The position numbers were made by a program, and so were the translations under genes. Positions 21,642-53,239 of a stretch of DNA of 64,000 nucleotides are shown piece by piece (the first letter of the stretch is position 1; each line of letters opens with the position of its first letter). Source of the stretch: Pseudovirgaria hyperparasitica (lineage: Eukaryota); assembly GCA_010093815.1 (NCBI GenBank), contig ML996583.1, one strand, 5' to 3'. Below the pieces are notes generated by a model. The model was not told the origin of the DNA. It did no database searches and saw only the letters and a list, made by a program, of their open reading frames with translations.

Positions 21642-24600
21642 TTAAGCCCATTGAATTTCTTTTAATGTACTCTTAATATTCTTCGCTAGTACGATAACTA
21701 ACTCTGACATTAATACCAATACCTCCCTTGCTTGATCCTCGTTAAGTAGATAATCTGGCACGGCTATCTTCAACCATATCTGGTCTCTCTGCTGCACCGC
21801 AATTAAAATGACCTGTCTCCTCCGCGGCGGTACACCCCTTTCCAGTCTCGTTCCTGGCACGCCACTTAGCTTTAGTGGTCCCTTGCCCTCGACCTCTGCA
21901 CCACGGAAATTGACCACAGATCCGAAATCGCCGTCTCCAGGCACCATAGTATTTGTTTCCGTAAACGTCCGACCCGCCGTCACCCCGAGTATAGTGGGCA
22001 GCTCCACGAGTTCATGGGCCATAGCATCGATATACTGGTTTTGCAGATCGATAAGCAGTTGGTGCACCGTCAGGTCTGCTGATGCAGCGACACGCAGGAG
22101 GATTGTGTTCGTACATAGGCCGACACAGGTCGTGGTGTCGGATACACGTCCACTGTTACGCCCATTGGTCATCATACCAAACACAACGGGAACTGGACTG
22201 AGGTTTGGGGAAGTGGCCAGTGCGCTTAGTGTGCTGGGCCGGTGCTGAGTCAAGCGAACGAGGATCAGAGACCATGCGGCATTGACGATAGTTGCGAGGG
22301 TGATGCCCTCGACAGGCGGAATAGGTGGGGTATGTAGCGTGGGAAGGGACCATTGGGGCGACGACATAGGAGACGGGCCTGAAGGGAGATGTGTTATCAG
22401 GTGGCCCGAGAGGCGGGATCGCCAGAAGTCGATGGATTCCGAGGAGGACTTCTGACGCAACAATTCTTCAATGTGGGCTGAGTATTGGGTGGCGGGAGCG
22501 AGAGCCTGGTCTTCGTAAAGAGCCTGCAGGTCCGAGAAAAGGACTTCGAGGGCATATCCATCAAACTGGGCGTGGGAAAGGCGGATAACGAGGACGCTGC
22601 GGCTGGAAGGTGTTGAGATGTGTGTGAATCTTGTGATTGGTCTATCGAGGGGGGGTAATGTGAGGTCGTCCTGGGAGCATAACTTCGAAACTTGATCGTC
22701 TAGGTTTCCGGATTCCATCCGTGACTGAACAAGCCCCTCGGGGGGCTGGAAAGGAATCACTTGGCCTATCTGACCATTTATCATTCGGAACACCACACGC
22801 AAGATCTCGTGCCGCTCGGCTAGCAGCCGACAAGCTGAAAGCAATTTGGCATCGTCGATACGTTCAGCAAAATCGAAGATGAAATACTGAAGAGATTCAC
22901 GAAGTCGAACTTGCTGGGCCTCTGTGAGAGGGAGTACCTTTTGTATGTCTGTGGAAGGCAGCTCCTTCGTCGATGCTGCAGCAAACAAATCGTCCTCTCC
23001 TGTGAACCCAAACTCTGCGCTAATCAACCCCCTTGTATCGATACGCATTCCTTTGATTTTGTCAAAGTGGCAGACTGATGCGGCCAGGTCGGATATCTTG
23101 GGATGACGGAGAATTTCCGAAACTTGGATTTGCACGCTGAACTTACGAAGACGGTTGACGAGACTAATTGCGAGAAGTGAGTCTCCTCCTAGGTCGAAGA
23201 AAGAGTCGTCTAGGCCAACACTCTCGGGCTCCCGGTTGAACAATTCGGCAAAAGCCATTTGGAGCACCTTTTCGGCTTCGTTATAAGGCACTCTCCTCGT
23301 TTGATGGAACCCAGTGTACTTGTCAAGGTCCGCAGCTGAGAGAGAGTCTGCTTTGGACTGTAGCAGCTTTACGTCGGTCTTCCCGTTGATCGAGACAGGA
23401 AACTTGTAGAGCGTAAAATACTTTGTTGGGCGCATATATGAGGGGAGTTTGGCTGCTAATGTCTGGTCAGTATCTGTTAGTTTCTTACGAGTGATCTGGG
23501 TTGGTCTTGTGAAGATCGGGGTAGTCGAGACGAGTCTCGCATCCTCATCGTTCTCTGCCACCAGAGATGGCATCTCGATAAAAGCCGCAAGGATGTGATT
23601 CAGACTGCTTGTTCTACTGGAGATTGTGGTCACAAGAACGGAACTAGCCATGGGCAAACACTGTGCGATAACATTCTCTACCTCGCCAGCTTCCAGTCGT
23701 TGTCCACGAATCTTGATCTGATTGTCTTTCCGTCCGCAGAAAAAGATGGACCCATCTCGTTCAGAAAGCCTAGCAAGATCGCCTGTCTTGTAAAAGCGTC
23801 CTTCATACGATGAGCCTCGAAAGCTTGATACCCAACTTGGGTTGGACACAAATACTGCAGCTGTCTTCTCGGGCTCATGGAGATAGCCACGACCTACAAT
23901 CGGCCCTTCAAGAACCAACTCGCCCACAGCGCCTGGACCTAGGAGGGTGTTGTGGTTGTCCGGATCAACAATCCAGGCAATACATCCTACAGGATAGCCA
24001 ATGTTTGTAGGATCCGCACCCGGTTTTACCGAGGTCGTAAGTGTTGCTGTCACTGAACACTCCGAGGGACCATATCCGTTGATCAGCCTGACTTTGTCTG
24101 CCCATATGTCAACATCGTGGGGCTTCATTGCTTCGCCTCCAAGGACAAGGGCCTTTGCACATGGGATACTATCTGGTCTGATGAGCCTGGCAAGAGATGG
24201 TGTAAGGTCTAGTACATTGGCCTTCAATCTAACTGCAACCTCGGAGAAACTGTCTCTTCTCTCTGAGTCCGAGAGAACACAGACACAGCCTCCGGCGAGC
24301 CAAGTCATAAAGTGGTCTGATATGCTCGTATCAAAGGCGTATGATGCGAATTGAAGATATCTTGTCTGCTCATCAAGGCCAAATGCCTCTTTCTGAGTCA
24401 CAAGAGCTGTGCAATAATTGCGATGCTCTATTACGACTCCTTTAGGCTTCCCGGTGCTGCCTGAAGTGAAAACACAATATACGGCATTCTCGGGGGTTGC
24501 CTTGCTCAATGCATGGATCTCGGTATCGGGTTCTTTATTGTTCGTATCGTCGGTGCAGTCTACGATCACGACATTTGCCATAAGCTGGCTGGCCAATGGC

Positions 24601-25061
24601 TGCTGCTGTGAAGAACATACGACGAGTTTTGCTCTACTCGTGTCACATATTTCTTGCAAGCGGCGCCTGGGATGCGAGGGGTCCATAAGAATGAATGCAC
24701 CGCCGGCCTTGAGTACCCCAAGCATTGCTATAGATGTCCAACGTGATTTTTCGAACAGCAATGGTACAAAGGATTCGGGTCCCACATCATACGAAATGAG
24801 ACGTAACGCCAAGTGTGTAGAAAGAGTGTCGAGTTCTCGATAGCTAAATTGACCAGTCGATGAGAACACGGCTGGAGCATCAGCTCTTTCGAGACAGCGT
24901 TCACGAATAATGTCGTGCAGACAGACATCGACCGATGTGACTTCATTCGCATTGAAACGTCGCAAGTGCTGGTGATCAGCATTCGAAATGACACCGAGCG
25001 ACTCAGCGGTATTGGACGATAGATCCTTACTGCTTGGAAATGTATCGGGTCGTAGGGCCAT
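21642..25061 (-). CDS. Single-module nonribosomal peptide synthetase, A-T-C(T), 1139 aa, intronless
   Basis: A-domain motifs YCVFTSGSTGKPKG, FASYAFD, NGYGPSE, YKTGDL, GRKDNQIKIRGQRLE, NGKTD; thiolation motif FFDLGGDSL; terminal-type condensation motif SHAQFDG. Confidence 0.95.
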   Translation of the reverse strand: MALRPDTFPSSKDLSSNTAESLGVISNADHQHLRRFNANEVTSVDVCLHDIIRERCLERADAPAVFSSTGQFSYRELDTLSTHLALRLISYDVGPESFVPLLFEKSRWTSIAMLGVLKAGGAFILMDPSHPRRRLQEICDTSRAKLVVCSSQQQPLASQLMANVVIVDCTDDTNNKEPDTEIHALSKATPENAVYCVFTSGSTGKPKGVVIEHRNYCTALVTQKEAFGLDEQTRYLQFASYAFDTSISDHFMTWLAGGCVCVLSDSERRDSFSEVAVRLKANVLDLTPSLARLIRPDSIPCAKALVLGGEAMKPHDVDIWADKVRLINGYGPSECSVTATLTTSVKPGADPTNIGYPVGCIAWIVDPDNHNTLLGPGAVGELVLEGPIVGRGYLHEPEKTAAVFVSNPSWVSSFRGSSYEGRFYKTGDLARLSERDGSIFFCGRKDNQIKIRGQRLEAGEVENVIAQCLPMASSVLVTTISSRTSSLNHILAAFIEMPSLVAENDEDARLVSTTPIFTRPTQITRKKLTDTDQTLAAKLPSYMRPTKYFTLYKFPVSINGKTDVKLLQSKADSLSAADLDKYTGFHQTRRVPYNEAEKVLQMAFAELFNREPESVGLDDSFFDLGGDSLLAISLVNRLRKFSVQIQVSEILRHPKISDLAASVCHFDKIKGMRIDTRGLISAEFGFTGEDDLFAAASTKELPSTDIQKVLPLTEAQQVRLRESLQYFIFDFAERIDDAKLLSACRLLAERHEILRVVFRMINGQIGQVIPFQPPEGLVQSRMESGNLDDQVSKLCSQDDLTLPPLDRPITRFTHISTPSSRSVLVIRLSHAQFDGYALEVLFSDLQALYEDQALAPATQYSAHIEELLRQKSSSESIDFWRSRLSGHLITHLPSGPSPMSSPQWSLPTLHTPPIPPVEGITLATIVNAAWSLILVRLTQHRPSTLSALATSPNLSPVPVVFGMMTNGRNSGRVSDTTTCVGLCTNTILLRVAASADLTVHQLLIDLQNQYIDAMAHELVELPTILGVTAGRTFTETNTMVPGDGDFGSVVNFRGAEVEGKGPLKLSGVPGTRLERGVPPRRRQVILIAVQQRDQIWLKIAVPDYLLNEDQAREVLVLMSELVIVLAKNIKSTLKEIQWA

Positions 25062-26295: not shown

Positions 26296-28106
26296 TCATG
26301 CGTCATTACGCGAGGTAGAGACTTCCTCCTCCGGATCCGAATCGTGATGCATCCCCTTTGATGTCCGTCCAGCCTCGTCAGCCACTGTCAACGGGCGATT
26401 CTCGACTAAGAGCATGGTGACGATATAAATCAGGGTTAGTGGGACGTTCGACCCAAACACGAACTGGAGGCCGCGCATATATGCTTGAGGATTCGAAGTT
26501 TCATATTCTTGGATATCCATAGCCATCGTCATGGCGTTAGTGCTGGGGGTATGCTGTGCTCCAGCAATAAAAGTGTTCAAGAGTGCCCCGCAAACTGTAG
26601 CCGTAAGCATCATCGCAAGGACGTATGTGGCATGGATTCTAAAAACCCGGTTGAGAAGTGCGTACCTATCGTCCCTATAGCTCCCCCAAGCGTACGGAAG
26701 AAACTACGTAAGCCCGGAATAATGGACCTGTCTTCTTTCTCGCAGAGTGCTAACAGCGCGATCAGAGCTGGCAGAGAGCTACAGCCCTGAGAAAACCCCT
26801 CTAGCACACCCTGAGCTATGAACTCCCAAGCCGGGGTTTCTAAGGTGAACAGTGCTTTCCATAGCGATGCAATCACCCACACGAGCGCCCCTACTACGAG
26901 TGTCGAGTAGTATCCATCGGTCTTTGAGATGTATATCCCACTGAGAAGGGAGAATACAAGTTGAGACATGAGACGCGGCATAATGAAGAATCCAGCTTTC
27001 GAGGCATCCATATGCAGAGCATTTTGAAAATAGAGTGGAATATAGTAGAGGTTCACCCAGAAGATCCAACCGAAGATGAAGTAATGTCCGAGGAGTAAAT
27101 TGACAGGAAGACTTTTTGTGAAAAGATGCACTATCATAGTGTCAGAATATTGTCCACGAACAAGCAGGAAATGTTATCACGAGTGCGAACATACCAGGCA
27201 CAATCGGATCGAAAGCCCGTAGCTCTAGTCTGACGAAAAGGAGCATGAGAAGGAACCCAGTCACAAGCATTGCAATCAAGATGGGGGAATTCCACGGAAT
27301 GGCGTTGCCACCTTGAGATAAGGGTACCTGTCCAATGAATACGATCAGAGTTTAGAGTCTACCAGGAGCTATGGGAAGTGACTGACCAGAAGCAAGATAA
27401 TTGCAGCCATAACTGTGACCAGTCCTGACCAATCAAGGGCGCGGAACTTGTTCCAGGTCTTACCACTGGCCTTTGACTCCGGCAGCGTGATAACAAGCAG
27501 GACGAGTGCAAGCCCAATCATGACACTAAGGAGATGGAATGCGAGTCTCCACGACGCGCGGTCGGCAAGAAACCCACCGGCAAGAGGTCCAATGACACTA
27601 CCGGTATTCCCTAATACAGCAAGGATGCTATCGAAATAACCACGCTCCTTGAGCGGGACGGTGTCAGTGATTACGACTTGGATCAAGGCGTTGATTGACC
27701 CGGAGCCAAATCCAGTCACGGCTCGAGTAGCAAATAGTTGCCAAGGCTGTGAGGCCAGGCCAGAGAGGATGTTACCGATGGCCATGACGGATAAAGAAGT
27801 TAGCATGAGGCTTTTAAGACCAAAAATCTGAGAAAGTCTCCCAGTCACGAGCTGGACGCTCGTGCTTGTGACGAAGAAGCTGGCCCCAATCCATGAGAAC
27901 GATGAACCGACATGAAGGTCCTTCGCAACGGCTGGGAGAATGGAAGTGATGGCAGTCTGATCGAGAGAAAAGACAAGCTGAACGAGAGAGACCGCAGTAA
28001 CAATGATAATCTGTCGAGACAAAGGAAACTCCTTTGGCTGTCCTGCGCCCCTGGAATGTTCCGACCGTAGAAGACATGTGTGTTCATCGGCCTTGGCTTG
28101 GGCCAT
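26296..28106 (-). CDS. MFS drug/H+ antiporter (DHA2-like, 14-TM), 3 introns
   Basis: ORFs 27369-28106, 26610-27137 and 26296-26613 join through GT..AG introns; motifs SLDQTAI, GRLSQIFG, GPLAGGFL, YIPLYFQ, FFRTLGGAIG. Confidence 0.9.
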
Positions 28107-29348: not shown

Positions 29349-31074
29349 CTATGATTTGGCTTTGAGAGTCATAGTAATCACTGCAATGAACGTCCACAAC
29401 CCTGCAGCGCCCCAGAAGATAGCCCCAGGGGGTAAAAAGCTGGATTTCAGGATCAGGCTATATGCAAAGGACCATGCCGCTGGTCCGATGAGCCGGGCAA
29501 GCGACAGAATGAACGCGACCCTAGTGTAAAATTGAGGCACGGTCTCACCGATGCCCAGATGCTGTGCGCCAAATGACCTCAAAGAGTCCATGCTCCCATG
29601 CGCCATCGCAAAGCTGCACATTCCAATCAAGTAGACGGGAGCTATGGAGAACCCCATGGCAAAGCAGGCGAGAAGTTCGTCCAAGACGCATGCCCGGATT
29701 ATGAGTATGTCTTGCGCGGTGTGCGAATAGAAGTGCGACAACACATACCTTCGAAGTGGTGGTAGACACATGAGCACGACCCAGCCGATCAAGTCTAATA
29801 GGGCCAGCCATTGATTGGTCGTAGAAAGGTCCCAGGAAAGCGTCGTAGAGGTGAACTGGGGGAAAAGTTCTCGAATCTTCCACGCATTGGCGTGCAAAAT
29901 GAAGAATATCAGACACATTTTTGGAATGTGTGTCATTCGGAAAAGCGAGAAAAGTACTGTGAAAGTCTCCCGGACCGAGGAACGTATGATCATAAAGGCA
30001 ATCTCCTATCGGCCAACGTTAGCAGGCCCCAAAGGGAGGTCAACATGTTCCACGTACCGAGATTGGCTGCATCGCAGCAGAGGCCTTTGGTCGGGGCAAT
30101 AGTGGTTCCGTAGACGTTCCATCCTCCTCTCCCACCCCGATTTGGGATGTTAGAAGAAAGTAATGGGCTGCAGTTATCAGGAATCCAAGGATAGAACAAG
30201 AGTTAAGGACCCAAACGTGACTGCGGAGTAAAGCAGACCCGATTACAGTTCCCGCCATCTTAGAAACATTCCAAATTGCAGTTTGATAGTAATTGGAGAT
30301 GCTCCTATTGGTAAAGTTCGTTAGACACAGTCACAAAGACGATGACGGACTCACAAGTTGCTCTCATCGCATGTTTCGGCGATCACGGAATACAGTAGAG
30401 TCGAAAGAACTGCATCACCGCCTCCGATCCCGTCGATGAAGGTCGCTGCCAAAGCACCGTAGGCATCCCAGCGTTTTTGAAAGTAGACTTCGTGTGTTAA
30501 CCCGGGCCCAGCGGCGCTAGCTACTCGCCAGACCTACTCACAAGATATGGTATAGAGCGATAGTGAAATCGCAGTAGCCAAAGCATTGAGAAACAGGAGT
30601 GGTCTGAAACCGACAACGGGGAGGAGCTTCTGATAGGCAGCTAGGACGAAGATACCTATTGGTTGATTAGCATGAGTGAGGGCTCCCGATGCTCACACAT
30701 ATTCAGAAGCTAGGGATGTCATTACCGGGGAGGGCCGAGACGAAGAAGTCAGCACCAACGAAAGATGCGACTGTGGATTGAATCTCTTCCGTCTTGCATA
30801 GAGCTTCGGGAACGGATAAGGACCCGGTCGTCGAGAGGAGTGCTGGGTCATGATCGAGATATTGAATACGACAACGCGACTGTTCGTAAAGATACACCCT
30901 GGAGGTATTCTGGAGAGCGCGGGCAATGGAGCTAAAAGCCATTATACTGGATATGAGCCATATAGTGTGCCCGTCGCGACGCTTGAGCCAGACGGTGTCC
31001 ATGGCAACTAGTAGAGACGATGCTCGCTGGTGACCGATTCGAGGAGATTCGAGAGGCTCGTTGACAGACAACAT
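29349..31074 (-). CDS. MFS transporter (MFS_1, SLC46-like), 4 introns
   Basis: Five exons assembled with canonical donors (GTAATG, GTGAGT x2, GTACGT) and CTAA(C/T)-type branch sites; hydrophobic helices; DGIGGG motif and the typical N-terminal Cys loop (RCRI..LCKTEEIQ). Confidence 0.8.
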
Positions 31075-31941: not shown

Positions 31942-33780
31942 TCATAACCTGCCGTGTAGTCCGTAGTCTTCAATTGTGAGGGAAAGGAGGAAGAGAGCCG
32001 ATATCAGGACAGCATACGAAACAAATATACTCTGTATTGCCCTGGTATATGCCGTCAAGATCTGATCATTCTCTTGGCGTGAAGTATTCAAGTCTATTAG
32101 CGAAAATGCTGAAGAAATGAGCCGCTTGATCAGCTGAGCACTGAATTTTCCATGGAGCTGACTTAGTAGAACGCTGTTTAGGATAGCTCCTGACACTGAA
32201 TTTGTCATCAATCGATGTAATTTAATATGTCGGAGCATACTGACCTGTAATACCGATGGAGCCGCCCATATCTCGGAGAAAGTTGCGGATTACTGTAATG
32301 ACTGCCCGGTCCTCATTTCGAGAGCCAGCAAGAAGTCCTATTAATACTGGAAAGAAGTGAGCAAACCCTTTTCTACAGCAGATCATAATTCTCACCAGGC
32401 TGTAAGCAAGAACCAACCCCAATTCCCTCAAAGATACCTATTACGCACAGTAGCCAGATTGGTGTCTCTCGATTATAAGTGAAAGCTTTTACAATTGCCG
32501 CTACGGCCCATAGTCCAGTCCCGATGACAATCATGGGCATGTAATGTCCACAGCGAGTAATAATGACTCCGCTTAGTCCCGACGTGATGCCGTGTGCGAT
32601 GACCAGAGGTAGGATATACGAACCAGCCAAAGCCGGGCTCCAGCCTCGTACATTTTGGAGGTATAGTGGAAGTGAGAAAAGATTTCCCCAGAAGCACCAG
32701 CCAATGATTAGATTGACAGCAAGAAGTGTATTCGTTGATCTCCCGCAGGAGAAAACGTGTCCTACCAATCATAAGCTTAATATAAACTCAGTATGATCTA
32801 AGTTAGGTAAACCGAATCAATGACTTACTTGGTAGGACTGGAGTTTTGGCCATGTTACGTTCCACAAATACCAATAACGCAAAGCAGAGACCGCTCAGGG
32901 TGAGCAAGATGATCAAAGTTGGAGAGCCCCAACCCCAAGTTGAGCCACCTTGAGAGATTGGGACCTGCAAAGCTATCAGCCGAGGGCCCGAGCCGTGAGT
33001 CTCTAAAGATATTACCAGGAATAGTATAGTGCCACCCACTGTGAGAAGTATGCCAGCGTAATCGACCATGCGGATCTTCTGCCACACATTCTCAGGGGAT
33101 GTGGACTGTGGCAACACCAGTGCTAGGTATGAAACCGCAATCGCTACTAGAGGGCAAATAAACCAGAATGCCCAGCGCCATGAAGTTACTTCACTGAGCC
33201 AGCCGCCGATTATGGGTCCCAATCCATTACCAAAGGCTACAGAAATGCCTATAATTCCGAAATAATAACCGCGCTGATTCAGGGTTGTGATGTCCGAGAT
33301 AGTGATCTGAACAAGGGCGTTGATTGATCCTGCGCCTAGTCCAGTAAAGGCACGAGCAGCGTACAGTTGAATAGGCGTCTGAGATAGACCTGATAAGAGA
33401 TTCCCAAAGCCCATAACCAGCAGAGCGATTATTAGGCAATTTTTTCGGCCGAATATATCGGAGATGCGTCCATTTACTAATTGGGTACTTGTACTTGTGA
33501 GTAAGAAACTCGTGCCCACCCATGAGATCGACTGTCCTATACCAAGGCCCAAGGCTATCGAAGGCAAGGCGGTTGCAATGGCAGTCTGGTCAAGAAATGA
33601 GATGAACTGTACAAGAGCAAGGGCGGGAAAGATAGCAAGAAGTCTCCTTCGGGGAAGGACAAACGTCTGGTGGTCTGTGAGCTTTGGTACAGGCCTTAAG
33701 GGTGTCCGTTCGTTTGTTCTACTGTCCAGTGAGTCTTCGTGATAGCTATTGTCAAAACGGAGATCGGAAGCAATGCTCAT
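31942..33780 (-). CDS. MFS drug/H+ antiporter (DHA2-like), 4 introns; paralogue of 26296-28106
   Basis: FLDQTAIATALP, GRISDIFGRK, WRWAFWF, LPLYLQNVRG, FLRDMGGSIG; first ATG at 33780. Confidence 0.9.
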
Positions 33781-35613: not shown

Positions 35614-36464
35614 ATGGCGTATATCCTGTACGGATACGAGCGAAATCCTAGGACCCGTGTGTGCCGCATTATTGTAAGCTGCTCGTAATCTGCCCAAATA
35701 TATACTCGTGGGAAAGCTAAATTGAACGTAGGCCGCAGCGGAAGGGATCGAACTTAGTCTGTCTGAGGTTGTTCCTCGACGAGGTGTAAATAAAGCCAAG
35801 TACATGGAGCGCTTTCCACGCAGTCGTGGTAAGATACCTGCATTAGAAACTGCCGATACTCGATTGACCGAAACCATTGCTATTGCGGTTGTATGGTCTA
35901 ACACCCTCACTGGCTTTTACTGTTACTGATGCCTCTAGTATCTTGCCACATTGCATAATCGCTCACGATTGATGGGTGACGGCTCCCCGCAAGAAACAGC
36001 TGAAATCCTATCGTGGGCAAACTGGGCAAACCAGGAATTTCTTCAGATTGCTGCTCAATGGTGTGCATCCTTTCGATCTAGCAACACTGGTCGAAGCTTA
36101 CATACATGGCAGGTTTCTTCCTCTCATTCCATCGTTCACCGATCCTCCATCGTACAACAAGGATGCTGTCTCAGCAGGTCGCGCCGCAACACTTGATATC
36201 CTGGAATTTCTTGAAACGCACCTCACGTCTCGAATATATATTGCTACTGAGCACATATCCATTGCTGACATCATGCTTGTTATATACATATCTCGATTAT
36301 TTGAATGGGTTTTAGACCGCAAATGGAGAGAGGTACATCCTTCAGTCATGGGCTACTTCGAGAGGGTCACAAGCTTTAACGCGGTTCAAGCGGTAATACC
36401 GCGACATGACTTCATCATGATTGAAGAGGAGACTCCCAACAAGATGCCAGACAGGATCAAGTGA
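35614..36464 (+). CDS. Glutathione S-transferase, EF1Bgamma N-terminal class (no EF1G C-terminal domain), 3 introns
   Basis: Spliced product MAYILYGYERNPRTRV..FPRSRGKIPALE..LTETIAIA..SIADIML..WREVHPSVMGYFE; GST cis-Pro loop (KIP), (T)E motif and N-capping SIAD. Confidence 0.85.
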
Positions 36465-43944: not shown

Positions 43945-46306
43945 TCAGTAGGTAGTTGCGCCATATAGGTCCATACTTTTGTCAATGTCCAGTGACGTGG
44001 CGGCATCATGTATTCTTGTAACGATTATCTCTTGCCATCTCTATAGGAGAGACATAGTCAGTACACTCTCTCGTGGTCACTTGACTTCCTAAGTCCTGTG
44101 TGTCAACATACCTTTGCATTGCTCATATTGCCAGCAGTAAGGCTCGAAGCGAGTCCAGGGAACGGATCTGCATTCGCATAATAGGCGGCAGGCCCGAAAA
44201 CAACGTGTTTTGCCCAAGGTCGATCATCTAAGCCAGCTTCGTAGATAAATTGACGTTCGAAACCTTTGTACCGGCGATTTATCTCCCGTACCAGCCCCTC
44301 TGTACTCCTCGGGTTCGTGTCAAATGACTTTGCCCGCAGGGCGTCCGCTTGCGCTTCAAACTCCTCTCCAGCAGCACGGAGCACCATCAACGCTTCCTCG
44401 AGGGGTAAGAAGCTGAATACATCTGATGATTCGGGGACTATCTTGCTCTTGAGTATTCTCACGAAGCCCTGGAGCTCGGTAACGTACTCCTTCACACTGA
44501 GTGGAAGTATAGGACTTTCAGACAGCGCACCTACCATCAAAGCCCACACTTTTGCGACCGCGGTATGGTACTCCCAAGTGGGATCTCCAAAATTATCCAT
44601 CCAATTGAGGCCATCGAAAGCAGAGTGGTAAGGGTAGATGGGATCTTTGGACCCAGCTGCGTAACCCATGTCAAGGCTACTTATCCCCAAGGAGTCCAGG
44701 AATATGGCACCATCGCTGCTGCTTCCGGGGGAGACTTTACCGTCCCACTCCTCAAGCAACGTCTGACCTTTGACGGATTGATTTGGTGACAGAACACTAC
44801 CCATCGCATCTTCAATGACCGGGCGGAGTAGAGGACTAGAGTGTATTCTAAAGGTCTTGCCGCTTGTCGCAACAACGACATTAAGGTATGCGACCGTATG
44901 CCCTGAGAGCCAAGCACGATTAGCCTCTGTCCATTCTGTAGAGCCTAGGTGGGCATATTCTTGGCCGTCCCAGCTCCCAAACATGATTGTTCGTCGAGGC
45001 TTCCAGCCGCGTCGAAGTGCCAGTCCGAGGCTGCGGATCACTTCGTTCATTGCAGCCGAGCCACTGTTCGGATCGCCACCACCAGGCGACCATGAGTCTC
45101 GGTGGTTGCCTATGATGATGACTTCGTCTTCGATCTGTCCAGGGATTGACCCAATAACGTTCCAGATAGGAGTTATCGTGAAGTTTTGAAGGCTGTCTAG
45201 ATTGACGATCAAGTGGCTAGGGGAAGGGCCGACGTTATATTGCACTCCCCTATAACCAAGCCCACCACCTTGCCAACCCTGTCCAATGTTGTCTGCTTTA
45301 GGGCCATGGCCGTTGAGAGCTTTAAGAAAGGGGAGCGCATCTGCAAAGGAGATCGGAATCGAGGGGATAGATGGCAAGGAGAGTTTTCTCCTCAAATATT
45401 CTTCCCTTGAGGGACAATCAGAAGGCGTGAAATTACCAAGCGGAGGTACTGTGATTATGATGATTACAATTAGCGTATATCAAGATAATAAACAGCAAAG
45501 ATCTTACAGTGTAGAACAACTGAGCCTCGCTCGATGGTTGTTGGGTTACGGGCAGGTCCATTTGGAAAGGCCTCGAAGCCGTTATCTTCTGTGATTTCCC
45601 CATCTTGCTGAGGATCAGTATACATAATCACAGCAGCAATGCCGAATTCCTCTGCGACCTGGACTTTGACACTGCGCCCGACCATCCCGTATTTAACTAT
45701 CGCAATCATTCCTTCTAGTTCAACATCTAGATTGAGGAGCTCATCGTAGTCCTCCCGAGTGCCGAAATTCGCATAGACATACTGCCTGCTGACGTTTCCA
45801 CTAGCCGAATAACCGTGGAAGGATGGAAACCGGGCACCAAGATTGCCATTATCACCGAGATCCTCTCGCAATCGCGCTTCGTAGAGCCGGCTTACGTCTG
45901 AGCCGTTCTGCTTCAACAGAGTGAGACTCTGATGGACTGGATAATTCAGATATACATCGTAGGGCACAACTTGGACTTTTGGAACCCCAAATTCTTTCCA
46001 CCTATCTCGGGTCCACAAAGCCTGACTTTCGTTTGTCCCGGCTAAATGGAGTCCGCTCCCATAGTAGCTAGTCCACTCTCTGACCTTTGTGCCGTTAGGG
46101 GTTTCTTGGAGGATCTGTTGAAGCTGTCTGTACGATATATGTCCCTGCCCGTGCAGGGCAGTGAAATAAGGGAGGTCATCCCAGAAGTGTAAGCTCGAGA
46201 AGACAAAGAGCAGTGAACAGACAAGGGCGGCAACTGAAGCAGTTCGGTGGGTAGTAGCTGTCCTTGCTGCCGGCTGTGGCAGGTATAACAACAGCTCCGA
46301 CTTCAT
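43945..46306 (-). CDS. Peptidase M28 (glutamate carboxypeptidase II / transferrin-receptor-like) homologue with PA domain; catalytic residues altered
   Basis: N-terminal TM helix; HLAG, FHGYSASG, YANFG, PA domain, GNHRDSW, GGDPNSG, SWDGQEY, YLNVVVA, YHSAFD, GLDDRPWAKHVVFGP; 2 introns; stop TGA at 43945. Confidence 0.9.
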
Positions 46307-46880: not shown

Positions 46881-47855
46881 ATGACCCAATATGATCGCTT
46901 GGTACGAAGTTTCAGAGCTTTAAGAAGGATAGCAAAGCATGCTTCCAGCCCGATTGGTATTTGGGGGAACAAGACCTCAACAAGACCTCGTCAGTCAAAT
47001 TAGATGCTCACGTCACTACCTTTAGCCTAACTACTGATATGTCAATCAGAATCATCATATTCAATTCCACATCTTCGAGTGGATCCTAATGTTAAGCCAA
47101 TCGCACCCAAGCATGTCGCTGAGATCCACCAAATTCTGGAGTCGTGCGGTATCTCGAAGGTCACGCTCGCGTACGCGGATCCAGAGAGCGACTTTCTCAA
47201 GCACCTCATTCTGAACCTCAACAAACATTTTCAACATGGCCCACCCATCACACACAGCTCATCACGGGGCTGGTTCTGGGATGTGCGACCGACCTCTGCT
47301 TCCCTGGAAGCTGACAGTCAGAAAGCCCGCTCCGAGACCATGGAGAGCTTTCCCTGGCACACAGATTGCAGCTACGAGGCTTGTCCACCACGCTTCTTTG
47401 CTCTGCACGTACTACAGCCCGACAGATGTGGAGGTGGGAATCTTTCTGTGCTTGACGTAGACCAAGCCGTACGGCTGCTTCCAAAGCAAACGCAGGATCA
47501 ACTCCTGCGCCCTGAATTCGAGATAGCGGTCCCAGAAGAATTTTGCAAAGGAGGCGAATCGAGGGTTACCGGAAGTCTTTTAGGGAATGGGTCCGGAGAG
47601 GCGGCGTTTCAGCTCCGGTACCGAGATGATATCGTTCGACCTTTGACAAAAGGCGCTGCTCTAGCACTTGAAGAGCTGCGTCAGCTTCTCCAGAGCGCGG
47701 CGGTCAAGCCGCTCGTCTTGCAACTCACACCAGTTCTCCTTCCTGCTGGATCTGTCATACTTATTGACAACAGGCGTTGGTTACACGCTCGAGATCAAGT
47801 GAAGGACCCAGACCGCCACCTCAGAAGAGTACGCTGGGATGCACGGCCATTTTAA
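46881..47855 (+). CDS. TauD/TfdA-family Fe(II)/2-oxoglutarate dioxygenase
   Basis: ATG 46881, intron 46957-47049; facial-triad motifs FPWHTD and DNRRWLHAR, followed by RHLRRVRW. Confidence 0.9.
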
Positions 47856-47924: not shown

Positions 47925-49517
47925 TCACATTCTTAGAAAGCACTGTTTGTCCAAAGCTAGTCCCGCCTCCTGGGGCCAATACAGCCTATCAATCTTGCCG
48001 TGTGCACCCCCAAAGATCAACTTGAAGCTATCTGCCTGAACATAGGTAGTGACCCGCCCTCGCTTCGCTTGCTCATTTCGATCCGCCATCCACAAGAATG
48101 TATCATGCTCATAGTGTGTTAACAGCCAAGCCTGACTCTCCAATCCTTGGAACAATACTTCCAACCCCCCAGCTTGCCGTTGTCGAACGACAATGACCCA
48201 ATCGTGCTCTTCATTGAGGTATGACCCGACATATACCTCCAGCGGCTTGGGCTTTGTATCTGGCGCTCTTACCTTCTCTAATTTACTCCTCGCTACGCGA
48301 ATACTCTCCGCATGGTTCTTTGCAGCCTCCTTTGCATAAGCGACAAAGTCTGTCGGCACCGGCGACTCAATCAGTGCCTCGATCAGTGCCATCGCAATCC
48401 AGCCCGACGCATCGCCTAGCCCTATGGAATTGGTACACACGACAACGCTAGCGTCCAACTCGGGTAGCAGTGCGAGAGAATTGCTATAGCCGGGTACACT
48501 GCCCGCATGGGCGATGAGGGGGCCGCACTGAACACCGGGAACGATTCTTGGCAGCGTTTTAACGTGGAAACCGTTACAGCCCATGCCGGCAATGGTACTA
48601 GGCAGAGCGGTGCGGTAGAAGCCGAAGGCGTAGGACTTTTCATTGACGGATCTGGAGACGAAGGCATGACCAGAGAGTTGCGCAGTGACTTCGCGGAGAA
48701 CGCTTGGGGACGAATTAGTTGCCTGTCCCTGCTCAGATCTGAGGGACCTGAGAAGGGCGATGGAATAGGTCAGGAGATCGTGTGGGCTGGAGTGAAGACC
48801 CATTGCAGGCGCCATGATTGTCCTTTCGCTGATGGGTGTTTGCGGAAGGGGATAAAGGTCGGCATTGTCGAGAGCGGCATATGGTCTGGCTAAATTATCT
48901 CCTGCAACATCGACAGGCTGAGCCGTCGTATGGCGGAGTCCCAAAGGCTCGATGATGCGTGTGGTTATGAATTGTCCATAAGTCATTCCAGTCAACTTTT
49001 CAATGACCTCTCCGACAATCGCATAGCCCCAGTTGCTGTAGCCCCAGCTTCCGCGAAATGAACCAGTGAGTTCTAGATTGCGGTATGCATCTAGTAACTT
49101 ATCTTTGGGCAACAGCAACTGTCCATCTGAGCCCAACCACCAGAGGTTTGATCTTGATAATCCACTTCGGTGACAAAGCAGGTCCTCGATTGTCACATTT
49201 TCGGTAACTATAGCGTCTTTGCTTCGGAAGTTAGGCAGGACGTCCTTGATGTGCGAATCCCATTTCACTTTGCCTTCAGCCACCAGTAGACCGATGGCAG
49301 ATGCAGTGAACGTTTTGGCGAGTGTTCCCAGGGCATAGATACCGTCTGAGTGGGTGGGTAACTGCTTTTCAATATCGAGAAAGCCGCTATTGAAAAGATA
49401 GATATTTTCTCCACGTAGGCTTATCCCCACAGAGACTCCAGGTGTACCGCAGATTTTACAAAGCTCTTTGATCTCAGACTCGAGGTCCCGAAATCGGTTG
49501 ACCAGACTCGAGCTCAT
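47925..49517 (-). CDS. Beta-lactamase/peptidase S12 fold protein with C-terminal DUF3471-like domain; SxxK serine replaced by Thr
   Basis: GTLAK (for SxxK), DLLCHRSGL, YSN, HAGS; likely start MSSSLVNRF at 49517; intronless. Confidence 0.88.
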   Translation of the reverse strand: MSSSLVNRFRDLESEIKELCKICGTPGVSVGISLRGENIYLFNSGFLDIEKQLPTHSDGIYALGTLAKTFTASAIGLLVAEGKVKWDSHIKDVLPNFRSKDAIVTENVTIEDLLCHRSGLSRSNLWWLGSDGQLLLPKDKLLDAYRNLELTGSFRGSWGYSNWGYAIVGEVIEKLTGMTYGQFITTRIIEPLGLRHTTAQPVDVAGDNLARPYAALDNADLYPLPQTPISERTIMAPAMGLHSSPHDLLTYSIALLRSLRSEQGQATNSSPSVLREVTAQLSGHAFVSRSVNEKSYAFGFYRTALPSTIAGMGCNGFHVKTLPRIVPGVQCGPLIAHAGSVPGYSNSLALLPELDASVVVCTNSIGLGDASGWIAMALIEALIESPVPTDFVAYAKEAAKNHAESIRVARSKLEKVRAPDTKPKPLEVYVGSYLNEEHDWVIVVRQRQAGGLEVLFQGLESQAWLLTHYEHDTFLWMADRNEQAKRGRVTTYVQADSFKLIFGGAHGKIDRLYWPQEAGLALDKQCFLRM

Positions 49518-49997
49518 GTCGATCAATTTCTGATCAGCACAACTCCTTTCAGGGCAGGATAGACTTGAAGACTTCAGAAGGGATCTTGTGATGAGATTTC
49601 TCAACCCACTGTGCGAAATTATTAAAAACGTGCATTTGTAATAAAATACATGCTCGTGGGGCATGCTGTCGCTAACGCCGATTCTCCTCTTGTTGATCGC
49701 AAGCTAGGCTTAAAATGACGCTGCATTACATCTGCGATGCACAGTAGAGTAAGGGATGCGGGGTATCTCTCCGCTGCAAGACAATGCAGACGTACGTGCC
49801 GATATGGTGCATACTGTACAGCTGTTGTAATTCCCAAGACCGGGATGGGAGTCCTGCATGAAAGAAACGACGTCGTGGTAAATAGAAACAGAGTGCATTG
49901 ATACGGGAGCAAGATTATGTCAGAATACGGTGAGAGGAGTTTTTTGACCGACAGCTCATTTGTTCGGCAGAGAAATCGACAAGGAGCAGATTACACG

Positions 49998-50818
49998 ATG
50001 TCGAATTCACAATATGAGAAGACCACAAAGAACGGTGTTGTACGCTATCGCGGACGAGGTAGGCTGTCAAGGGTCCTTCAGAAAGCTTCACTTACCCAGA
50101 TTACCCCCTAGGGAAATATGATTTTGAGACGGTTCATTCTATAATCGATGAAGCACCGATTCTTCATGTGTCTTTCACTCCACTCGACGACGACTTCCCA
50201 GCAATATTACCAATGTTTGGTTGTATGGGTCTCTTTCCATCTGATGACACCAATAGTGTAGGCAGGACCAGCTCGCTTTATCTCCATGGTTACGCAGCGA
50301 GCAGGATGTTTCGAACGTCTAGAGGGGAGGATGCAGGTCTGAAAATCACGGTTGCTGCCACTATACTGGATGGAATCGTTCTTGCATTAACGCCCAACCA
50401 CCATAGTGCAAACTACCGGTCAGCTGTGGTGTTTGGCCACGCATATCTAGTAACGGATGAGGCAGAACGGTGGTGGGCGATGAAGCATGTAACAAACAGT
50501 ATTGTGCCAGAGCGTTGGGAAAACACACGCATTCCGCCAACAGACGCCGAAGCGAAGGCGACGGGCATAATACGCGTCGAAATCGAGACTGGAAGTGCGA
50601 AGATTCGAACGGGAACCACGGGCGAAGATCGAAACGACTTGAAGGACGAGGGGCTCCGCAAAAGAGTTTGGGCAGGAGTGCTTCCGATGTGGACACGATA
50701 TGGGCAACCAACGCCAGCGCCGACGAATATGACGGACAAAACACCAGAGTACATCTCGCGCTTTGTTGATGATAGCAACAAGCAGCAAGAGGACTACGCA
50801 ATGAAGGTTGCGTTGTAA
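49998..50818 (+). CDS. Flavin-nucleotide-binding split-barrel protein (pyridoxamine 5'-phosphate oxidase-like / NimA-like)
   Basis: ATG 49998, intron 50059-50111; RGKYDFETVHSIID, LHVSF, LYLHG, DGIVLAL..HHSANYRSAVVFG, SAKIRTG, VWAGVLP. Confidence 0.88.
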
Positions 50819-51663: not shown

Positions 51664-53239
51664 TCAAACGGTTATCGATGTTGGAAGTTGCTGACCAATA
51701 AACCCAGCTTGGTCCCAAAAGCTAGCATGGACTTTACGGTCACCTTCCCAAGCCCAACGCGCGTGCTGGACAGCGAAGTTCTGCAAATTCAAGACGGTCA
51801 GCATACCTCTCGGACGAACTGAAGACAGGCTCGGTCTTACGTCGATGATCAAGACATCACCCGCTTGCCAACTGATATCGGATCCTAGCTTATGTTGCCA
51901 TTCATCCATCTTAGCCAGCCACTCAGCAGCGATAGGCTCGTCCTTTTCGATTCCAGCAAACTGTAACTTCGGATCAGCCAGCGGCCTCAGAGTTTTTTAA
52001 ACTGCTTACGTAGGGTGGTATGGCTGTGGCTTCTTCGCCGTCTTTGGTCTTGTACGTGTGAGGTGGCTCCCACGTGTTGTTAACCTTGGCGTTGGTGTAT
52101 CTGGTGGACATAGCCTAGAACGCAACAAGTTAAACAAGAGTCAGCCCAAGAGAGTAGGGCTAATGTACATTGAAGATAGTCGGAAGCTTGCTGGTCGGGT
52201 GGATTCGCGTTCCTAGCATCTGTCAGTAGCTTCTTCATGTGAGACTACATCGAGACTCACCAGGGACCCTATGCACAACATTCAAATCTCCATTCTCCTC
52301 CCATGTCCAGTCAAACCCTCTCCTCTGCCACTCTGGCAGACTGACATCCTTGGACGCCTCTTCGGACCAGCCTCCTCTCTTGGCCAGATCCAAAATGCGC
52401 TCCTCGACGTGTTTTTTCTTCCGCTCCTCGCTCCAGGTTGAGACATCCTCTCCATTAGATGGCCCGAACGCGTTTGCCTTGTATAGACCATTGCCTCCCA
52501 CGATTCCCCCAACCTGTGAAGCTGTGTGTGGGATATGATATACGAGACCTTTGGTGCCGCACTTCTCAACGAATTCTGGAGCGGACTTCTTGAGACGGTC
52601 ATAAAGTGCCACTGAAGAGGTAATGTTGGTCTCGCCACCCCTACCTGGCGGGATCTGGCAGAATAGGATCAAGTATCCAGGGTGCACTGGAGAGACGGCA
52701 TACTCATTATGCCAACCGATAAAGTGAGATGGGGGTCCCCTAGTGAGAAATGCATTCAGCTTACACGATCGATCAATCCTATACAACGACTACGGAGAGA
52801 TGGAAGATTCAATGGCAAACTTTGAGGTCCGGCGAAACGGAAGATCTACTCACTCATTCGTGGTCATGACGTTCTTCGCCAATGGTCTTCTCAGAACCTC
52901 CATTCCCACATGCACGTGAGGATACCATGCACCTTCGCCCTTCCCTGCAAGGGCAGACAGAAACTCCGAAAAGTCCTCAGGGTCCTTCAATGGCAAACCC
53001 TTGATGTTGATTGCACCGCCATTGGCGTCCAGTAGTTCTCGAATCTTGCTGTGGCCACTAGTATCGCTGGGCTGGGCAGCTAGCTGTGCAATTTCTTTGA
53101 GAATTTCGTCCTTAGTGGCTTGCTTCGAGGGTGCAATAACGAGAGGGAATTTGATCGAGGGCTGGTCCGGCGCGTCGATAATCTTCATATCATTCTGGTA
53201 GGGCTCTTCTCTGACAACCCAGAACTCTTCGACAGCCAT
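51664..53239 (-). CDS. Clavaminate-synthase-like / SyrP-type Fe(II)/2-oxoglutarate dioxygenase, multi-intron
   Basis: Exons join TTNE|GPPSHFIGWHNEY..LFCQIPPGRGGET..WQAGDVLIID|NFAVQHAR..RKVHAS; H-x-E...H triad. Confidence 0.88.

What the first reader, a model, noticed from the sequence alone, without database searches (positions are those of the whole stretch)
21642..53239. Apparently uncharacterised non-canonical amino acid gene cluster around a single-module NRPS
Seen: 13 adjacent, apparently intact genes bounded by a RIP block on the left and a 4.6-kb gene-free gap on the right. Nearly every enzyme works on amino acids or 2-oxo acids (PLP gamma-substitution enzyme, aminotransferase, pyruvate-type aldolase, two 2OG dioxygenases, A-T-C NRPS). 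There are three exporters and a dedicated regulator, but no PKS, terpene cyclase, P450 or methyltransferase. Known: parts of this toolkit occur in fungal pathways (citrinadin CndF, flavunoidine FlvA/FlvI, NK13650 AnkD, ibotenate IboG/IboH), but I recall none with this combination. Inference: the product is a small polar amino-acid or dipeptide-like antimetabolite or phytotoxin, a class standard organic extraction tends to miss.
Basis: partly seen in the sequence, partly recalled or inferred. Interest (0 to 1): 0.88.

Follow-up and report, generated by a model that had tools for sequence, protein, structure and literature searches.

The report
Orphan fungal amino-acid peptide gene cluster
A rust-hyperparasitic fungus carries a transcribed gene cluster whose core enzymes are also found side by side in distantly related fungi, and which probably makes an unknown small peptide from unusual amino acids.

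Summary
They are an A-T-C NRPS, three MFS-type transporters, an HpcH aldolase, an EF1-gamma-class GST, an AspAT-like aminotransferase, a CndF-like PLP enzyme, a basic-region/ankyrin regulator, two TauD-type dioxygenases, a PNPOx-like flavoprotein, a GCPII-like protein and a beta-lactamase-fold protein. A source names the window's own aldolase as Pseudovirgaria hyperparasitica.

New here: the cluster is not a one-off. PLP, aldolase, GST and aminotransferase lie together in two independent metagenome lineages. One lineage adds an A-T-C NRPS with the same SHAQFDG motif. The other has an ATP-grasp ligase, an aspartate kinase, the flavoprotein and a TauD2 homologue instead. Pairs of these genes are adjacent or near in nine named species of five classes. 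Intron-skipping contigs show transcripts across 34.4-53.4 kb.

Ten literature searches found no characterised match; MIBiG was not available.

Best reading: a conserved cassette makes non-proteinogenic, probably dicarboxylic, amino acid(s), and the NRPS joins them into a small polar product. The chemistry is inferred. The GCPII-like and beta-lactamase-fold genes carry active-site substitutions and are not conserved, so they are doubtful members.

The parts
1..21600 (.). RIP-mutated AT-rich block forming the left border
   Evidence: GC 0.367, TpA/ApT 1.69, (CpA+TpG)/(ApC+GpT) 0.24. No copy or relic of any cluster gene inside it by tblastn.
21642..25061 (-). Single-module NRPS, A-T-C, 1139 aa, one exon
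   Evidence: Pfam. Motifs A3, A4 (FDxS), A7, A8 (Lys), T (GGDS) and C3 (SHAQFDG) are intact. Equals own database protein P0001.
26296..28106 (-). MFS transporter 1 (model 535 aa, 4 exons; introns not checked with RNA)
   Evidence: MFS_1 1.1e-33 and 1.8e-08 on two ORFs; model.
29349..31074 (-). Divergent multi-TM protein, probably an MFS-like transporter (model 499 aa; uncertain)
   Evidence: No Pfam hit. 6 hydrophobic segments. 21 of 30 nearest Atlas clusters are MFS (lead only).
31942..33780 (-). MFS transporter 2 (model 548 aa), paralogue of transporter 1
   Evidence: MFS_1 2.7e-34; 39% identical to MFS1; start.
34363..35435 (+). HpcH/HpaI-family class II aldolase, 307 aa, 3 exons
   Evidence: Pfam 2.3e-13. 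Nearest solved structure is macrophomate synthase 1izc, 2.6e-18. Introns 34531-34599 and 34982-35061 come from RNA-type contigs.
35614..36464 (+). Glutathione S-transferase, EF1-gamma class, about 230 aa, 4 exons
   Evidence: GST_C 2.5e-08; 1nhy 6.9e-10; introns; model.
36503..38096 (-). AspAT-like aminotransferase of a distinct subfamily (TYGK at the PLP lysine), 418 aa, 7 exons
   Evidence: Aminotran_1_2 9.8e-37. Mitochondrial AspAT 3hlm 3.5e-48. Three of six introns seen; model. Subfamily.
38350..39993 (-). CndF-like Cys/Met-family PLP enzyme, 547 aa, one exon
   Evidence: CndF 8zif 1.5e-63 over residues 3-533. PLP lysine invariant in 16 of 16 aligned homologues.
40620..41529 (-). Basic-region + ankyrin (bANK-type) regulator, model 236 aa, 3 exons; 5' end uncertain
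   Evidence: Ank_2 8e-24. Basic stretch read from the sequence. An RNA-type contig piece ends at 40953, at the modelled exon border.
43945..46306 (-). GCPII-like PA/M28/TFR_dimer protein, model 743 aa; probably not an active peptidase; doubtful member
   Evidence: Pfam; GCPII 3.5e-61. The query has Q and V where GCPII has the E of 'DAEEF' and the D of 'INAD'. No homologue in related loci.
46881..47855 (+). TauD-family Fe/2OG dioxygenase 1, about 304 aa, 2 exons
   Evidence: TauD 7.4e-15. Nearest solved structures are asparagine oxygenase 2og5 (5.2e-07) and lysine 3-hydroxylase. Intron 46990-47049. No homologue in related loci.
47925..49812 (-). Beta-lactamase-fold + DUF3471 protein (530 aa from the ATG at 49517; a short 5' exon is possible); doubtful member
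   Evidence: Pfam 2.4e-48. TLAK stands where the solved relative has SITK. No homologue in related loci.
49998..50818 (+). Pyridox_ox_2 (PNPOx-like split-barrel flavoprotein), about 255 aa, 2 exons
   Evidence: Pfam 3.3e-32; 6rk0 3.7e-22; intron 50059-50111. 49% identical homologue next to the PLP gene in L001/L002.
51664..53239 (-). TauD-family dioxygenase 2, 416 aa, 6 exons
   Evidence: TauD 1.6e-11. All five introns seen in RNA-type contigs. 51% identical homologue beside the aldolase in L002.
53240..57880 (.). Stretch without a long ORF, right of the cluster
   Evidence: Longest stop-to-stop ORF is 139 aa. The 3 ORFs scanned had no Pfam hit. Not tested with RNA.

Best explanation
This is a transcribed, apparently uncharacterised secondary-metabolite cluster of Pseudovirgaria hyperparasitica. 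It is built around a four-gene cassette that is conserved across several classes of Pezizomycotina: a CndF-like PLP enzyme, an HpcH aldolase, a GST and an AspAT-like aminotransferase. A PNPOx-like flavoprotein and a TauD-type dioxygenase often go with it.

Proposed mechanism (every chemical step is inferred from the families, none was tested):
1. The PLP enzyme turns an O-acylhomoserine into an electrophilic vinylglycine ketimine and adds a nucleophile at C-gamma, as CndF does.
2. The metal-dependent aldolase joins a pyruvate or oxaloacetate-derived enolate to a carbonyl partner, giving a 4-hydroxy-2-oxo (di)acid.
3. The AspAT-like enzyme keeps both carboxylate-binding arginines and aminates that oxo acid. 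This is the logic known for 4-hydroxy-4-methylglutamate.
4. The two dioxygenases and the flavoprotein adjust the oxidation state.
5. The A-T-C NRPS loads one amino acid. Its terminal C domain passes it to the free amine or hydroxyl of a second building block and so releases a dipeptide-like, polar product.
6. The MFS pumps export the product, and the bANK protein controls the genes.

In another lineage an ATP-grasp ligase stands in place of the NRPS. This suggests the cassette makes the unusual building block and the ligase only joins it.
For: Gene content and intact motifs.

Linkage elsewhere:
- tblastn of the 14 window models against 12 metagenome loci. The models for MFS2 and the regulator had frame errors, so those two rows are void.
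- L003-L005: NRPS, PLP, aldolase, GST and aminotransferase lie side by side. L006: the same without the NRPS, cut by the contig end.
- L001/L002: flavoprotein, PLP, aminotransferase, GST, aldolase and TauD2.
- L007-L012 are too short to tell.
- L001 and L002 are identical, and L003-L006 are 94-97% alike, so these are two independent lineages.
- Pfam on the flanks: L004 has an A-T-C NRPS and an EgtD-like methyltransferase. L002 has an ATP-grasp enzyme and an aspartate kinase.

Named species, by locus tag or accession order:
- Adjacent: Aspergillus bertholletiae, Wetmoreana brouardii and Fulgogasparrea decipioides (PLP/aldolase); Aspergillus oryzae (PLP/aminotransferase).
- One gene between: Cercospora beticola, Drechmeria coniospora, Xylariaceae sp. 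FL0255.
- Seven accession numbers apart: Colletotrichum zoysiae, Xylona heveae.
- One database protein (P0266) carries both GST and HpcH domains.

Other support:
- The window NRPS and the L004 NRPS share the C3 motif SHAQFDG. In AneB the second His and the Asp of this motif are essential and the first residue is dispensable (passages of PMC10720950).
- The aminotransferase belongs to a separate subfamily. The top 11 of 150 representatives score E 1e-78 to 5.5e-51, then there is a drop to 2.5e-46 and below. 10 of the 150 carry TYGK where the ordinary ones shown carry S-F/Y-A/S-K. L004 and L005 carry it too.
- Transcription: contigs of X3 and X4 skip 15 listed GT..AG or CT..AC introns, with 8 more not shown. 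Contigs of the DNA run X1 skip none.
- Precedents: CndF function (passages of PMC11331486); aldolase plus transaminase making 4-hydroxy-4-methylglutamate (passages of PMC7421883).
Against: - No product, substrate or reaction was tested.
- The NRPS of L003-L005 is only about 30% identical to the window's. Its A4 pocket residues differ (DTxxS against DMxxI), so the loaded amino acid may differ.
- No CndE-like imine reductase family was found in the window.
- No homologue of TauD1, the GCPII-like gene, the beta-lactamase-fold gene, MFS1 or the third transporter appeared in the related loci. The models for MFS2 and the regulator were faulty, so those two were not tested.
- The genes compared are not linked in six species: Claviceps africana, Conoideocrella luteorostrata, Wetmoreana sp. 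5, Oculimacula yallundae, Squamulea squamosa and Metarhizium rileyi (different contig lengths only). The hits there may be other paralogues.
- The two named NRPS/PLP pairs I checked are 18 and 118 accessions apart.
- The PLP tree did not make the linked copies one clade. The smallest group holding the window and all five linked copies has 74 of 110 rows.
- Transcript presence in one sample is not co-regulation.
- That R292 and R386 are kept was judged by eye from recalled AspAT numbering.
Confidence: 0.65

Rival explanations
1. The cluster is the same, but the PLP enzyme does sulfur chemistry. It carries out the family's classical C-S gamma-replacement (O-acylhomoserine plus a thiol). The conserved GST supplies or handles a glutathione or cysteine adduct. 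The product is then a thioether or otherwise sulfur-containing amino acid rather than a C-C-linked one.
For: The GST is present in all six informative loci (L001-L006) and in the window. Pfam places the enzyme in Cys_Met_Meta_PP. TauD-family enzymes often act on sulfonates (family name only). One representative of the aminotransferase subfamily (P0293) is fused to an arylsulfotransferase domain. In gliotoxin-type clusters a GST starts a sulfur-insertion route (section 5 of the kaitocephalin preprint).
Against: The nearest solved relative by far is the C-C-forming CndF (1.5e-63, against about 1e-14 for cystathionine synthases and lyases). However, no fungal Str2-type enzyme is among the solved structures. 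No gamma-glutamyl transferase, dipeptidase or dithiol oxidase family was found. The GST is of the EF1-gamma class, which is not known to me as a sulfur-insertion class.
Confidence: 0.15
2. It is a known cluster that my tools could not recognise. The product has already been linked to these genes in a paper or MIBiG entry outside the library I searched.
For: The cassette occurs in well-studied species (Aspergillus oryzae and A. flavus, Cercospora beticola). Subscription journals, where much fungal biosynthesis is published, are mostly not in the library. MIBiG was not available.
Against: Ten searches found nothing. None of the 120 + 120 + 40 homologues listed carries a biosynthetic name. A 2025 paper states that only a few putative fungal ATP-grasp enzymes had been reported (passages of PMC12568646).
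Confidence: 0.12
3. The cassette is nutritional or catabolic, not biosynthetic. An aminotransferase plus an aldolase would break down a gamma-hydroxy amino acid, for example a 4-hydroxyglutamate-type route. The PLP enzyme, GST and TauD enzymes would scavenge sulfur or nitrogen. The NRPS would merely lie next to them.
For: AspAT plus an aldolase is also a catabolic pair (established for hydroxyproline breakdown; recalled). TauD, GST and Cys/Met PLP families are common in sulfur-limitation responses (recalled).
Against: A ligase (NRPS or ATP-grasp), an aspartate kinase and an EgtD-like methyltransferase are linked to the cassette in other lineages. The window also has a pathway-type regulator and three transporters, and the cluster abuts a RIP block. 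The aminotransferase is a specialised paralogue.
Confidence: 0.08

Closest known systems
CndF, the PLP-dependent gamma-substitution enzyme of citrinadin biosynthesis (PDB 8zif)
   Same: Full-length similarity (E 1.5e-63, residues 3-533 against 13-551). The PLP lysine is conserved. It probably acts on O-acylhomoserine.
   Different: No CndE-like imine reductase and no citrinadin-type genes in the window. The gene is instead tied to an aldolase, a GST and an AspAT-like enzyme. The nucleophile is unknown. Closer unnamed homologues exist (56% and 54% identity).
Aldolase + transaminase pair that makes 4-hydroxy-4-methylglutamate for Sch210972 and harzianic acid
   Same: An aldolase and a transaminase encoded together in a fungal cluster, giving a gamma-hydroxy dicarboxylic amino acid (passages of PMC7421883). 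The aminotransferase here looks dicarboxylate-type.
   Different: There the amino acid feeds a PKS-NRPS tetramic acid. Here there is no PKS, and a PLP gamma-enzyme and a GST are always present. I could not compare sequences with those enzymes, because Kakule 2015 is not held.
Fungal single-module A-T-C NRPSs (AneB, ThmA, FlvI, DrcB, fumiquinazoline type)
   Same: Same A-T-C layout. The terminal C domain has the essential His and Asp. The expected role is to transfer one aminoacyl unit to a free alcohol or amine (passages of PMC10720950).
   Different: Best full-length hits are only 34-36% identical. No terpene or polyketide partner genes are present, so the acceptor is probably another amino acid.
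ank cluster (NK13650) of Aspergillus thermomutatus
   Same: A fungal amino-acid-derived polar product; the cluster contains a PLP enzyme and an ATP-grasp enzyme.
   Different: Its core is a tRNA-dependent cyclodipeptide synthase, with a NIS synthetase, an ABC transporter, an FMO and a methyltransferase (figure legend). None of these families is in the window.
kpb cluster (kaitocephalin) of Eupenicillium shearii
   Same: Amino acids joined into a polar, glutamate-like scaffold. It has two dioxygenases, PLP enzymes, a GST and an FMN enzyme.
   Different: It has a halogenase, an ornithine aminotransferase, an ACC-synthase-like enzyme, a gamma-glutamyl transferase and a dipeptidase (section 5). 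'HpcH' does not occur in the text.
ToxE-type bANK regulators of fungal peptide clusters (recalled)
   Same: A bZIP-like basic stretch followed by ankyrin repeats.
   Different: Only about 236 aa in my model. No sequence comparison with ToxE was made.

Membership tests
Fungal single-module NRPS (A-T-C) | Adenylation core motifs, including the Asp and Lys that hold an alpha-amino acid | tested here: met
   A3 SGSTGKPKG, A4 FDTS, A7 YKTGD and A8 GRKDNQIKIRG are present; Pfam 2.6e-62. That these are the amino-acid-binding Asp and Lys is recalled.
Fungal single-module NRPS (A-T-C) | Carrier serine, and the catalytic His and Asp of the C3 motif | tested here: met
   GGDS and SHAQFDG. His and Asp are essential and the first residue is dispensable in AneB.
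CndF-type PLP gamma-substitution enzymes | Full-length homology to CndF, with the PLP-binding lysine | tested here: met
   8zif E 1.5e-63. K329 is invariant in 16 of 16 sequences.
CndF-type PLP gamma-substitution enzymes | C-C bond formation between O-acetylhomoserine and a carbon nucleophile | not testable with these tools
   Needs an enzyme assay.
CndF-type PLP gamma-substitution enzymes | A partner imine reductase (CndE-like) in the cluster | tested here: not met
   No reductase family among the 83 ORFs scanned. Only a PNPOx-like flavoprotein is present.
4-hydroxy-4-methylglutamate module (Sch210972 type) | Aldolase and transaminase genes encoded together | tested here: met
   34363-35435 and 36503-38096, with the GST between them. 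The same trio occurs in L001-L006.
4-hydroxy-4-methylglutamate module (Sch210972 type) | A PKS-NRPS that takes up the amino acid | tested here: not met
   No PKS domain in the window.
ank (NK13650) cluster | AnkA-type cyclodipeptide synthase, NIS synthetase, ABC transporter, FMO, methyltransferase | tested here: not met
   No NIS, ABC, FMO or methyltransferase family was found in the window. AnkA has no conserved domain, so its absence could not be tested.
kpb (kaitocephalin) cluster | Flavin halogenase, ornithine aminotransferase, ACC-synthase-like enzyme, gamma-glutamyl transferase, dipeptidase | tested here: not met
   None of these families is in the window. Gene list.
bANK regulators | A basic DNA-binding stretch followed by ankyrin repeats | tested here: met
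   Ank_2 8e-24. The basic stretch lies in the upstream exons. DNA binding was not tested.
Glutamate carboxypeptidase II (active M28 peptidase) | Catalytic Glu and the full set of zinc ligands | tested here: not met
   The alignment to GCPII shows Q for the first E of DAEEF and V for the D of INAD. That these are Glu424 and Asp453 is recalled.
Serine beta-lactamase-fold hydrolases | SxxK nucleophile motif | tested here: not met
   TLAK is aligned to SITK. The YxN and HxG motifs are kept.
RIP-affected DNA | TpA/ApT well above, and (CpA+TpG)/(ApC+GpT) well below, the values of the coding DNA beside it | tested here: met
   1.69 and 0.24 in the block, against 0.77 and 1.22 in the genes.

The most novel reading that the evidence does not exclude
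The PLP-aldolase-GST-aminotransferase cassette would be an undescribed, widely spread fungal route. It would join two primary-metabolite units by a C-C bond into a new diamino or hydroxy-amino dicarboxylic acid, for example a diaminopimelate-like or glutamate-like antimetabolite. Different fungi would then attach a carrier amino acid with interchangeable ligases (an A-T-C NRPS here, an ATP-grasp enzyme elsewhere). That would be a fungal counterpart of bacterial 'Trojan-horse' dipeptides. In this hyperparasite it would act against rust fungi.
Probability: 0.2. Interest if true: 0.8.

Novelty: new variant of a known kind. Interest (0 to 1): 0.55.

Why it matters
Small polar amino-acid metabolites of fungi are under-sampled, because standard extraction loses them and cluster-finding software keys on large core enzymes.

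This window gives a concrete, transcribed example. It also gives a four-gene signature (CndF-like PLP enzyme, HpcH aldolase, EF1-gamma-class GST, TYGK-type aminotransferase) that can be searched for across fungi, including Aspergillus oryzae and A. flavus and Cercospora beticola.

If the product is an antimetabolite used by a rust hyperparasite, it could explain part of that biocontrol interaction. It could also supply new enzymes for making non-canonical amino acids.

The swap between NRPS and ATP-grasp around one cassette would be a clear case of modular pathway evolution.

Tried and rejected
- Whole genome: none is held for this window, so I could not look elsewhere in the genome for housekeeping paralogues or a homoserine acetyltransferase.
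- Earlier findings of this scan: three look-ups, nothing.
- RNA runs: no RNA holder listed. X3 and X4 have no recorded kind. I take them as RNA-derived only because their contigs skip introns. Contig depth was not used to rank genes.
- PLP tree of 110 of the 120 hits (10 rows under 480 aa dropped; FastTree): it did not separate aldolase-linked copies from the rest, and linkage is unknown for 104 rows. Uninformative.
- Stachelhaus code: not derived, because I had no reference A domain from a tool.
- Relics of an aspartate kinase, ATP-grasp enzyme, EgtD-like methyltransferase or second AMP-binding gene in the window: none found.
- NK13650 and kaitocephalin clusters: considered and rejected on gene content.
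- Kakule 2015 could not be read. Supplements were not consulted.
- My first automatic gene models were wrong for the aminotransferase, aldolase, GST, TauD1, TauD2, the flavoprotein and the regulator. They were rebuilt from the RNA-type joints.
- The MFS2 and regulator models used had frame errors, so their lack of hits in the loci means nothing.
- Structure prediction, fold search and complex prediction were not used, because they would not decide the open questions.

Full report
**What is there.** The window falls into two parts. Bases 1-21600 are AT-rich (GC 0.37) with strong RIP signatures: TpA/ApT 1.69 and (CpA+TpG)/(ApC+GpT) 0.24. From about 21700 onward the DNA is ordinary coding DNA (0.49, 0.77, 1.22). 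Pfam scans of 43 and then 40 stop-to-stop ORFs, my own splice-aware gene models and introns read from public contigs give 14 genes between 21642 and 53239:
- an A-T-C NRPS
- two clear MFS transporters, and a third multi-TM gene whose nearest Atlas clusters are mostly MFS (21 of 30, a lead only)
- an HpcH/HpaI aldolase
- a GST
- a class I aminotransferase
- a Cys/Met-family PLP enzyme
- a protein with a basic stretch followed by ankyrin repeats
- a PA/M28/TFR_dimer protein
- a TauD-family dioxygenase
- a beta-lactamase+DUF3471 protein
- a Pyridox_ox_2 flavoprotein
- a second TauD-family dioxygenase

Otherwise its inventory is right. No PKS, terpene cyclase, P450 or methyltransferase family was seen. 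To the right, 53.3-57.9 kb has no ORF longer than 139 aa.

**Organism.** The database copy of the window's aldolase (100% identical) is named by NCBI as a protein of Pseudovirgaria hyperparasitica. This is a dothideomycete described as a mycoparasite of rust sori (abstract in the listing).

**What the parts resemble.**
- PLP enzyme: matches CndF (PDB 8zif) over its whole length at E 1.5e-63. The next best solved proteins are BesB (about 1e-26) and ordinary cystathionine synthases and lyases (about 1e-14 and weaker). Its PLP lysine is invariant among 16 aligned homologues. CndF couples O-acetyl-L-homoserine with a beta-keto acid through a C-C bond (passages of PMC11331486).
- Aldolase: its second exon is closest to macrophomate synthase (2.6e-18) and to 2-dehydro-3-deoxyglucarate aldolase.
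- Aminotransferase: an AspAT relative (3.5e-48). By eye, using recalled AspAT numbering, it keeps K258, R266, R292 and R386, which fits a dicarboxylic substrate.
- TauD1: weakly resembles asparagine oxygenase and lysine 3-hydroxylase, both hydroxylases of free amino acids.
- TauD2: resembles only uncharacterised clavaminate-synthase-like proteins.
- GST: of the EF1-gamma class.
- NRPS: has intact A, T and C motifs, with SHAQFDG in the C domain. In the single-module NRPS AneB the second His and the Asp of this motif are essential and the first residue is not. Such A-T-C enzymes transfer one aminoacyl unit to a free alcohol or amine (passages of PMC10720950). Fungus-specific C subtypes with SHXXXD are described (passage).

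**Is it a cluster? Linkage elsewhere.** A scan of metagenome contigs with an alignment of PLP homologues gave 12 loci. I ran tblastn of the window's gene models against them.
- L003-L005 carry NRPS, PLP, aldolase, GST and aminotransferase next to each other.
- L006 carries the last four, and the contig ends before the PLP side.
- L001/L002 carry flavoprotein, PLP, aminotransferase, GST, aldolase and TauD2.
- L007-L012 are too short to say anything.
- L001 and L002 are identical, and L003-L006 are 94-97% alike. So these are two independent lineages, not six.

Pfam on the flanks shows that the L004 NRPS is also A-T-C, and it has the identical SHAQFDG motif. Beside it lie an EgtD-like methyltransferase and a further AMP-binding gene. 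L002 has no NRPS. Instead it has a 753-aa ATP-grasp enzyme and an aspartate kinase with an ACT domain.

In named genomes, locus tags and accession order place the PLP gene as follows:
- next to the aldolase in Aspergillus bertholletiae, Wetmoreana brouardii and Fulgogasparrea decipioides
- next to the aminotransferase in Aspergillus oryzae
- one gene away from its partner in Cercospora beticola, Drechmeria coniospora and Xylariaceae sp. FL0255
- seven accession numbers away in Colletotrichum zoysiae and Xylona heveae

One database protein carries both GST and HpcH domains.

Those hits may be other paralogues. The two named NRPS/PLP pairs I checked are 18 and 118 accessions apart.

**The aminotransferase is a specialised paralogue.** In a search of 1.84 billion representatives, 11 proteins stand apart at E 1e-78 to 5.5e-51. 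The ordinary AspATs follow at 2.5e-46 and weaker. Ten of the 150 listed carry TYGK at the PLP lysine, where the ordinary ones shown carry S-F/Y-A/S-K. Three more among the first 18 carry TFGK or TLGK; beyond the first 18 only the exact TYGK was looked for. The copies in L004 and L005 carry TYGK as well.

**Transcription.** Four public runs hold the stretch. Contigs of X3 and X4 (one sample, one study, kind not recorded) skip 15 listed introns with GT..AG or CT..AC ends, plus 8 not shown. Contigs of the DNA run X1 skip none. I therefore take X3 and X4 to be RNA-derived. Spliced contigs cover the aldolase, GST, aminotransferase, TauD1, flavoprotein and TauD2. Unspliced contigs cover the PLP gene, the main exon of the GCPII-like gene and the beta-lactamase-fold gene. 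The joints fixed or corrected my models for six genes. This shows transcripts exist in one sample.

**Doubtful members.**
- The GCPII-like protein aligns to human GCPII at 3.5e-61. It has Q where GCPII has the first E of DAEEF, and V where GCPII has the D of INAD. I recall these as the catalytic Glu424 and the zinc ligand Asp453.
- The beta-lactamase-fold protein has TLAK where its solved relative has the SxxK nucleophile motif.
- Neither gene, nor TauD1, has a homologue in the related loci.

They may be bystanders, binding proteins or lineage-specific additions.

**Comparison with the known.** Ten full-text searches found no cluster with this core.
- The ank/NK13650 cluster is built on a tRNA-dependent cyclodipeptide synthase, with NIS, ABC, FMO, methyltransferase and ATP-grasp genes (figure legend).
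- The kaitocephalin cluster has a halogenase, an ornithine aminotransferase, an ACC-synthase-like enzyme, a gamma-glutamyl transferase and a dipeptidase (sections 5 and 8).
- An aldolase plus a transaminase is the known route to 4-hydroxy-4-methylglutamate in Sch210972-type clusters, but there it feeds a PKS-NRPS (passages).
- A 2025 paper says only a few putative fungal ATP-grasp enzymes had been reported (passages).
- None of the homologue names listed is a biosynthetic name.

MIBiG could not be searched, and the library lacks most subscription journals. I therefore leave about a one-in-eight chance that the cluster is already assigned.

**How it most likely works.** Shown:
- gene content and intact motifs
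- a conserved four-gene cassette, with the flavoprotein and TauD2 also linked to it in a second lineage
- alternative ligases (NRPS or ATP-grasp)
- transcription in one sample

Inferred from the families:
- The PLP enzyme activates an O-acylhomoserine and adds a nucleophile at C-gamma.
- The aldolase builds a 4-hydroxy-2-oxo (di)acid from a pyruvate-type enolate.
- The AspAT-like enzyme aminates an oxo diacid.
- The dioxygenases and the flavoprotein tailor the intermediates.
- The NRPS loads one amino acid, and its C domain releases it onto the amine or hydroxyl of the second unit.
- The MFS pumps export the product.

Whether the two carbon-skeleton steps act in one line or make two separate building blocks is open. 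So is what the GST does, and whether the new gamma-bond is C-C or C-S.

**Verdict.** A real, intact, transcribed and apparently unassigned cluster. Its main interest is the widely conserved cassette rather than the NRPS. It is a good genome-mining target, but not a new kind of system.

Noticed in passing
window 42713, 48024, 50140 (contig ends of run X1): Loose ends of the DNA-run contigs read like loxP-type linker sequence. By recall this is most likely a mate-pair library linker left in the assembly graph, not biology.
   Followed up: no
window 43945-46306 (-): The GCPII-like protein has Q and V at two positions where human GCPII has an acidic residue (DAEEF, INAD). It is probably a non-catalytic homologue.
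   Followed up: partly
window 47925-49517 (-): The beta-lactamase-fold protein has Thr in place of the SxxK serine nucleophile, while the YxN and HxG motifs are kept.
   Followed up: partly
window 60685-61860 (-), and 61-63 kb: An ORF rich in Q, H and P with a long polyglutamine run and no Pfam hit. It coincides with strong GC skew (0.33-0.48). The neighbouring 537-aa ORF 59054-60667 also has no Pfam hit.
   Followed up: no
L002 322-2580 and 9987-11507; L004 8487-9627 and 18780-20162: Related clusters carry genes absent from the window. L002 has an ATP-grasp ligase and an aspartate kinase with an ACT domain. L004 and L006 have an EgtD-like methyltransferase and an extra AMP-binding gene. The window holds no relic of them.
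   Followed up: partly
proteins P0266 and P0293: P0266 (517 aa) carries GST and HpcH domains in one protein. P0293 (815 aa) joins an arylsulfotransferase domain to a cluster-type aminotransferase. Each may be a true fusion or a merged gene call.
   Followed up: no
window 26296-28106 and 31942-33780: The two clear MFS transporters are paralogues of each other (39% identity over 300 residues).
   Followed up: no
listing (PMC9030584): A paper on swainsonine clusters names this species five times, so the genome may also hold a SWN cluster elsewhere. I saw the listing only, and it does not concern this window.
   Followed up: no
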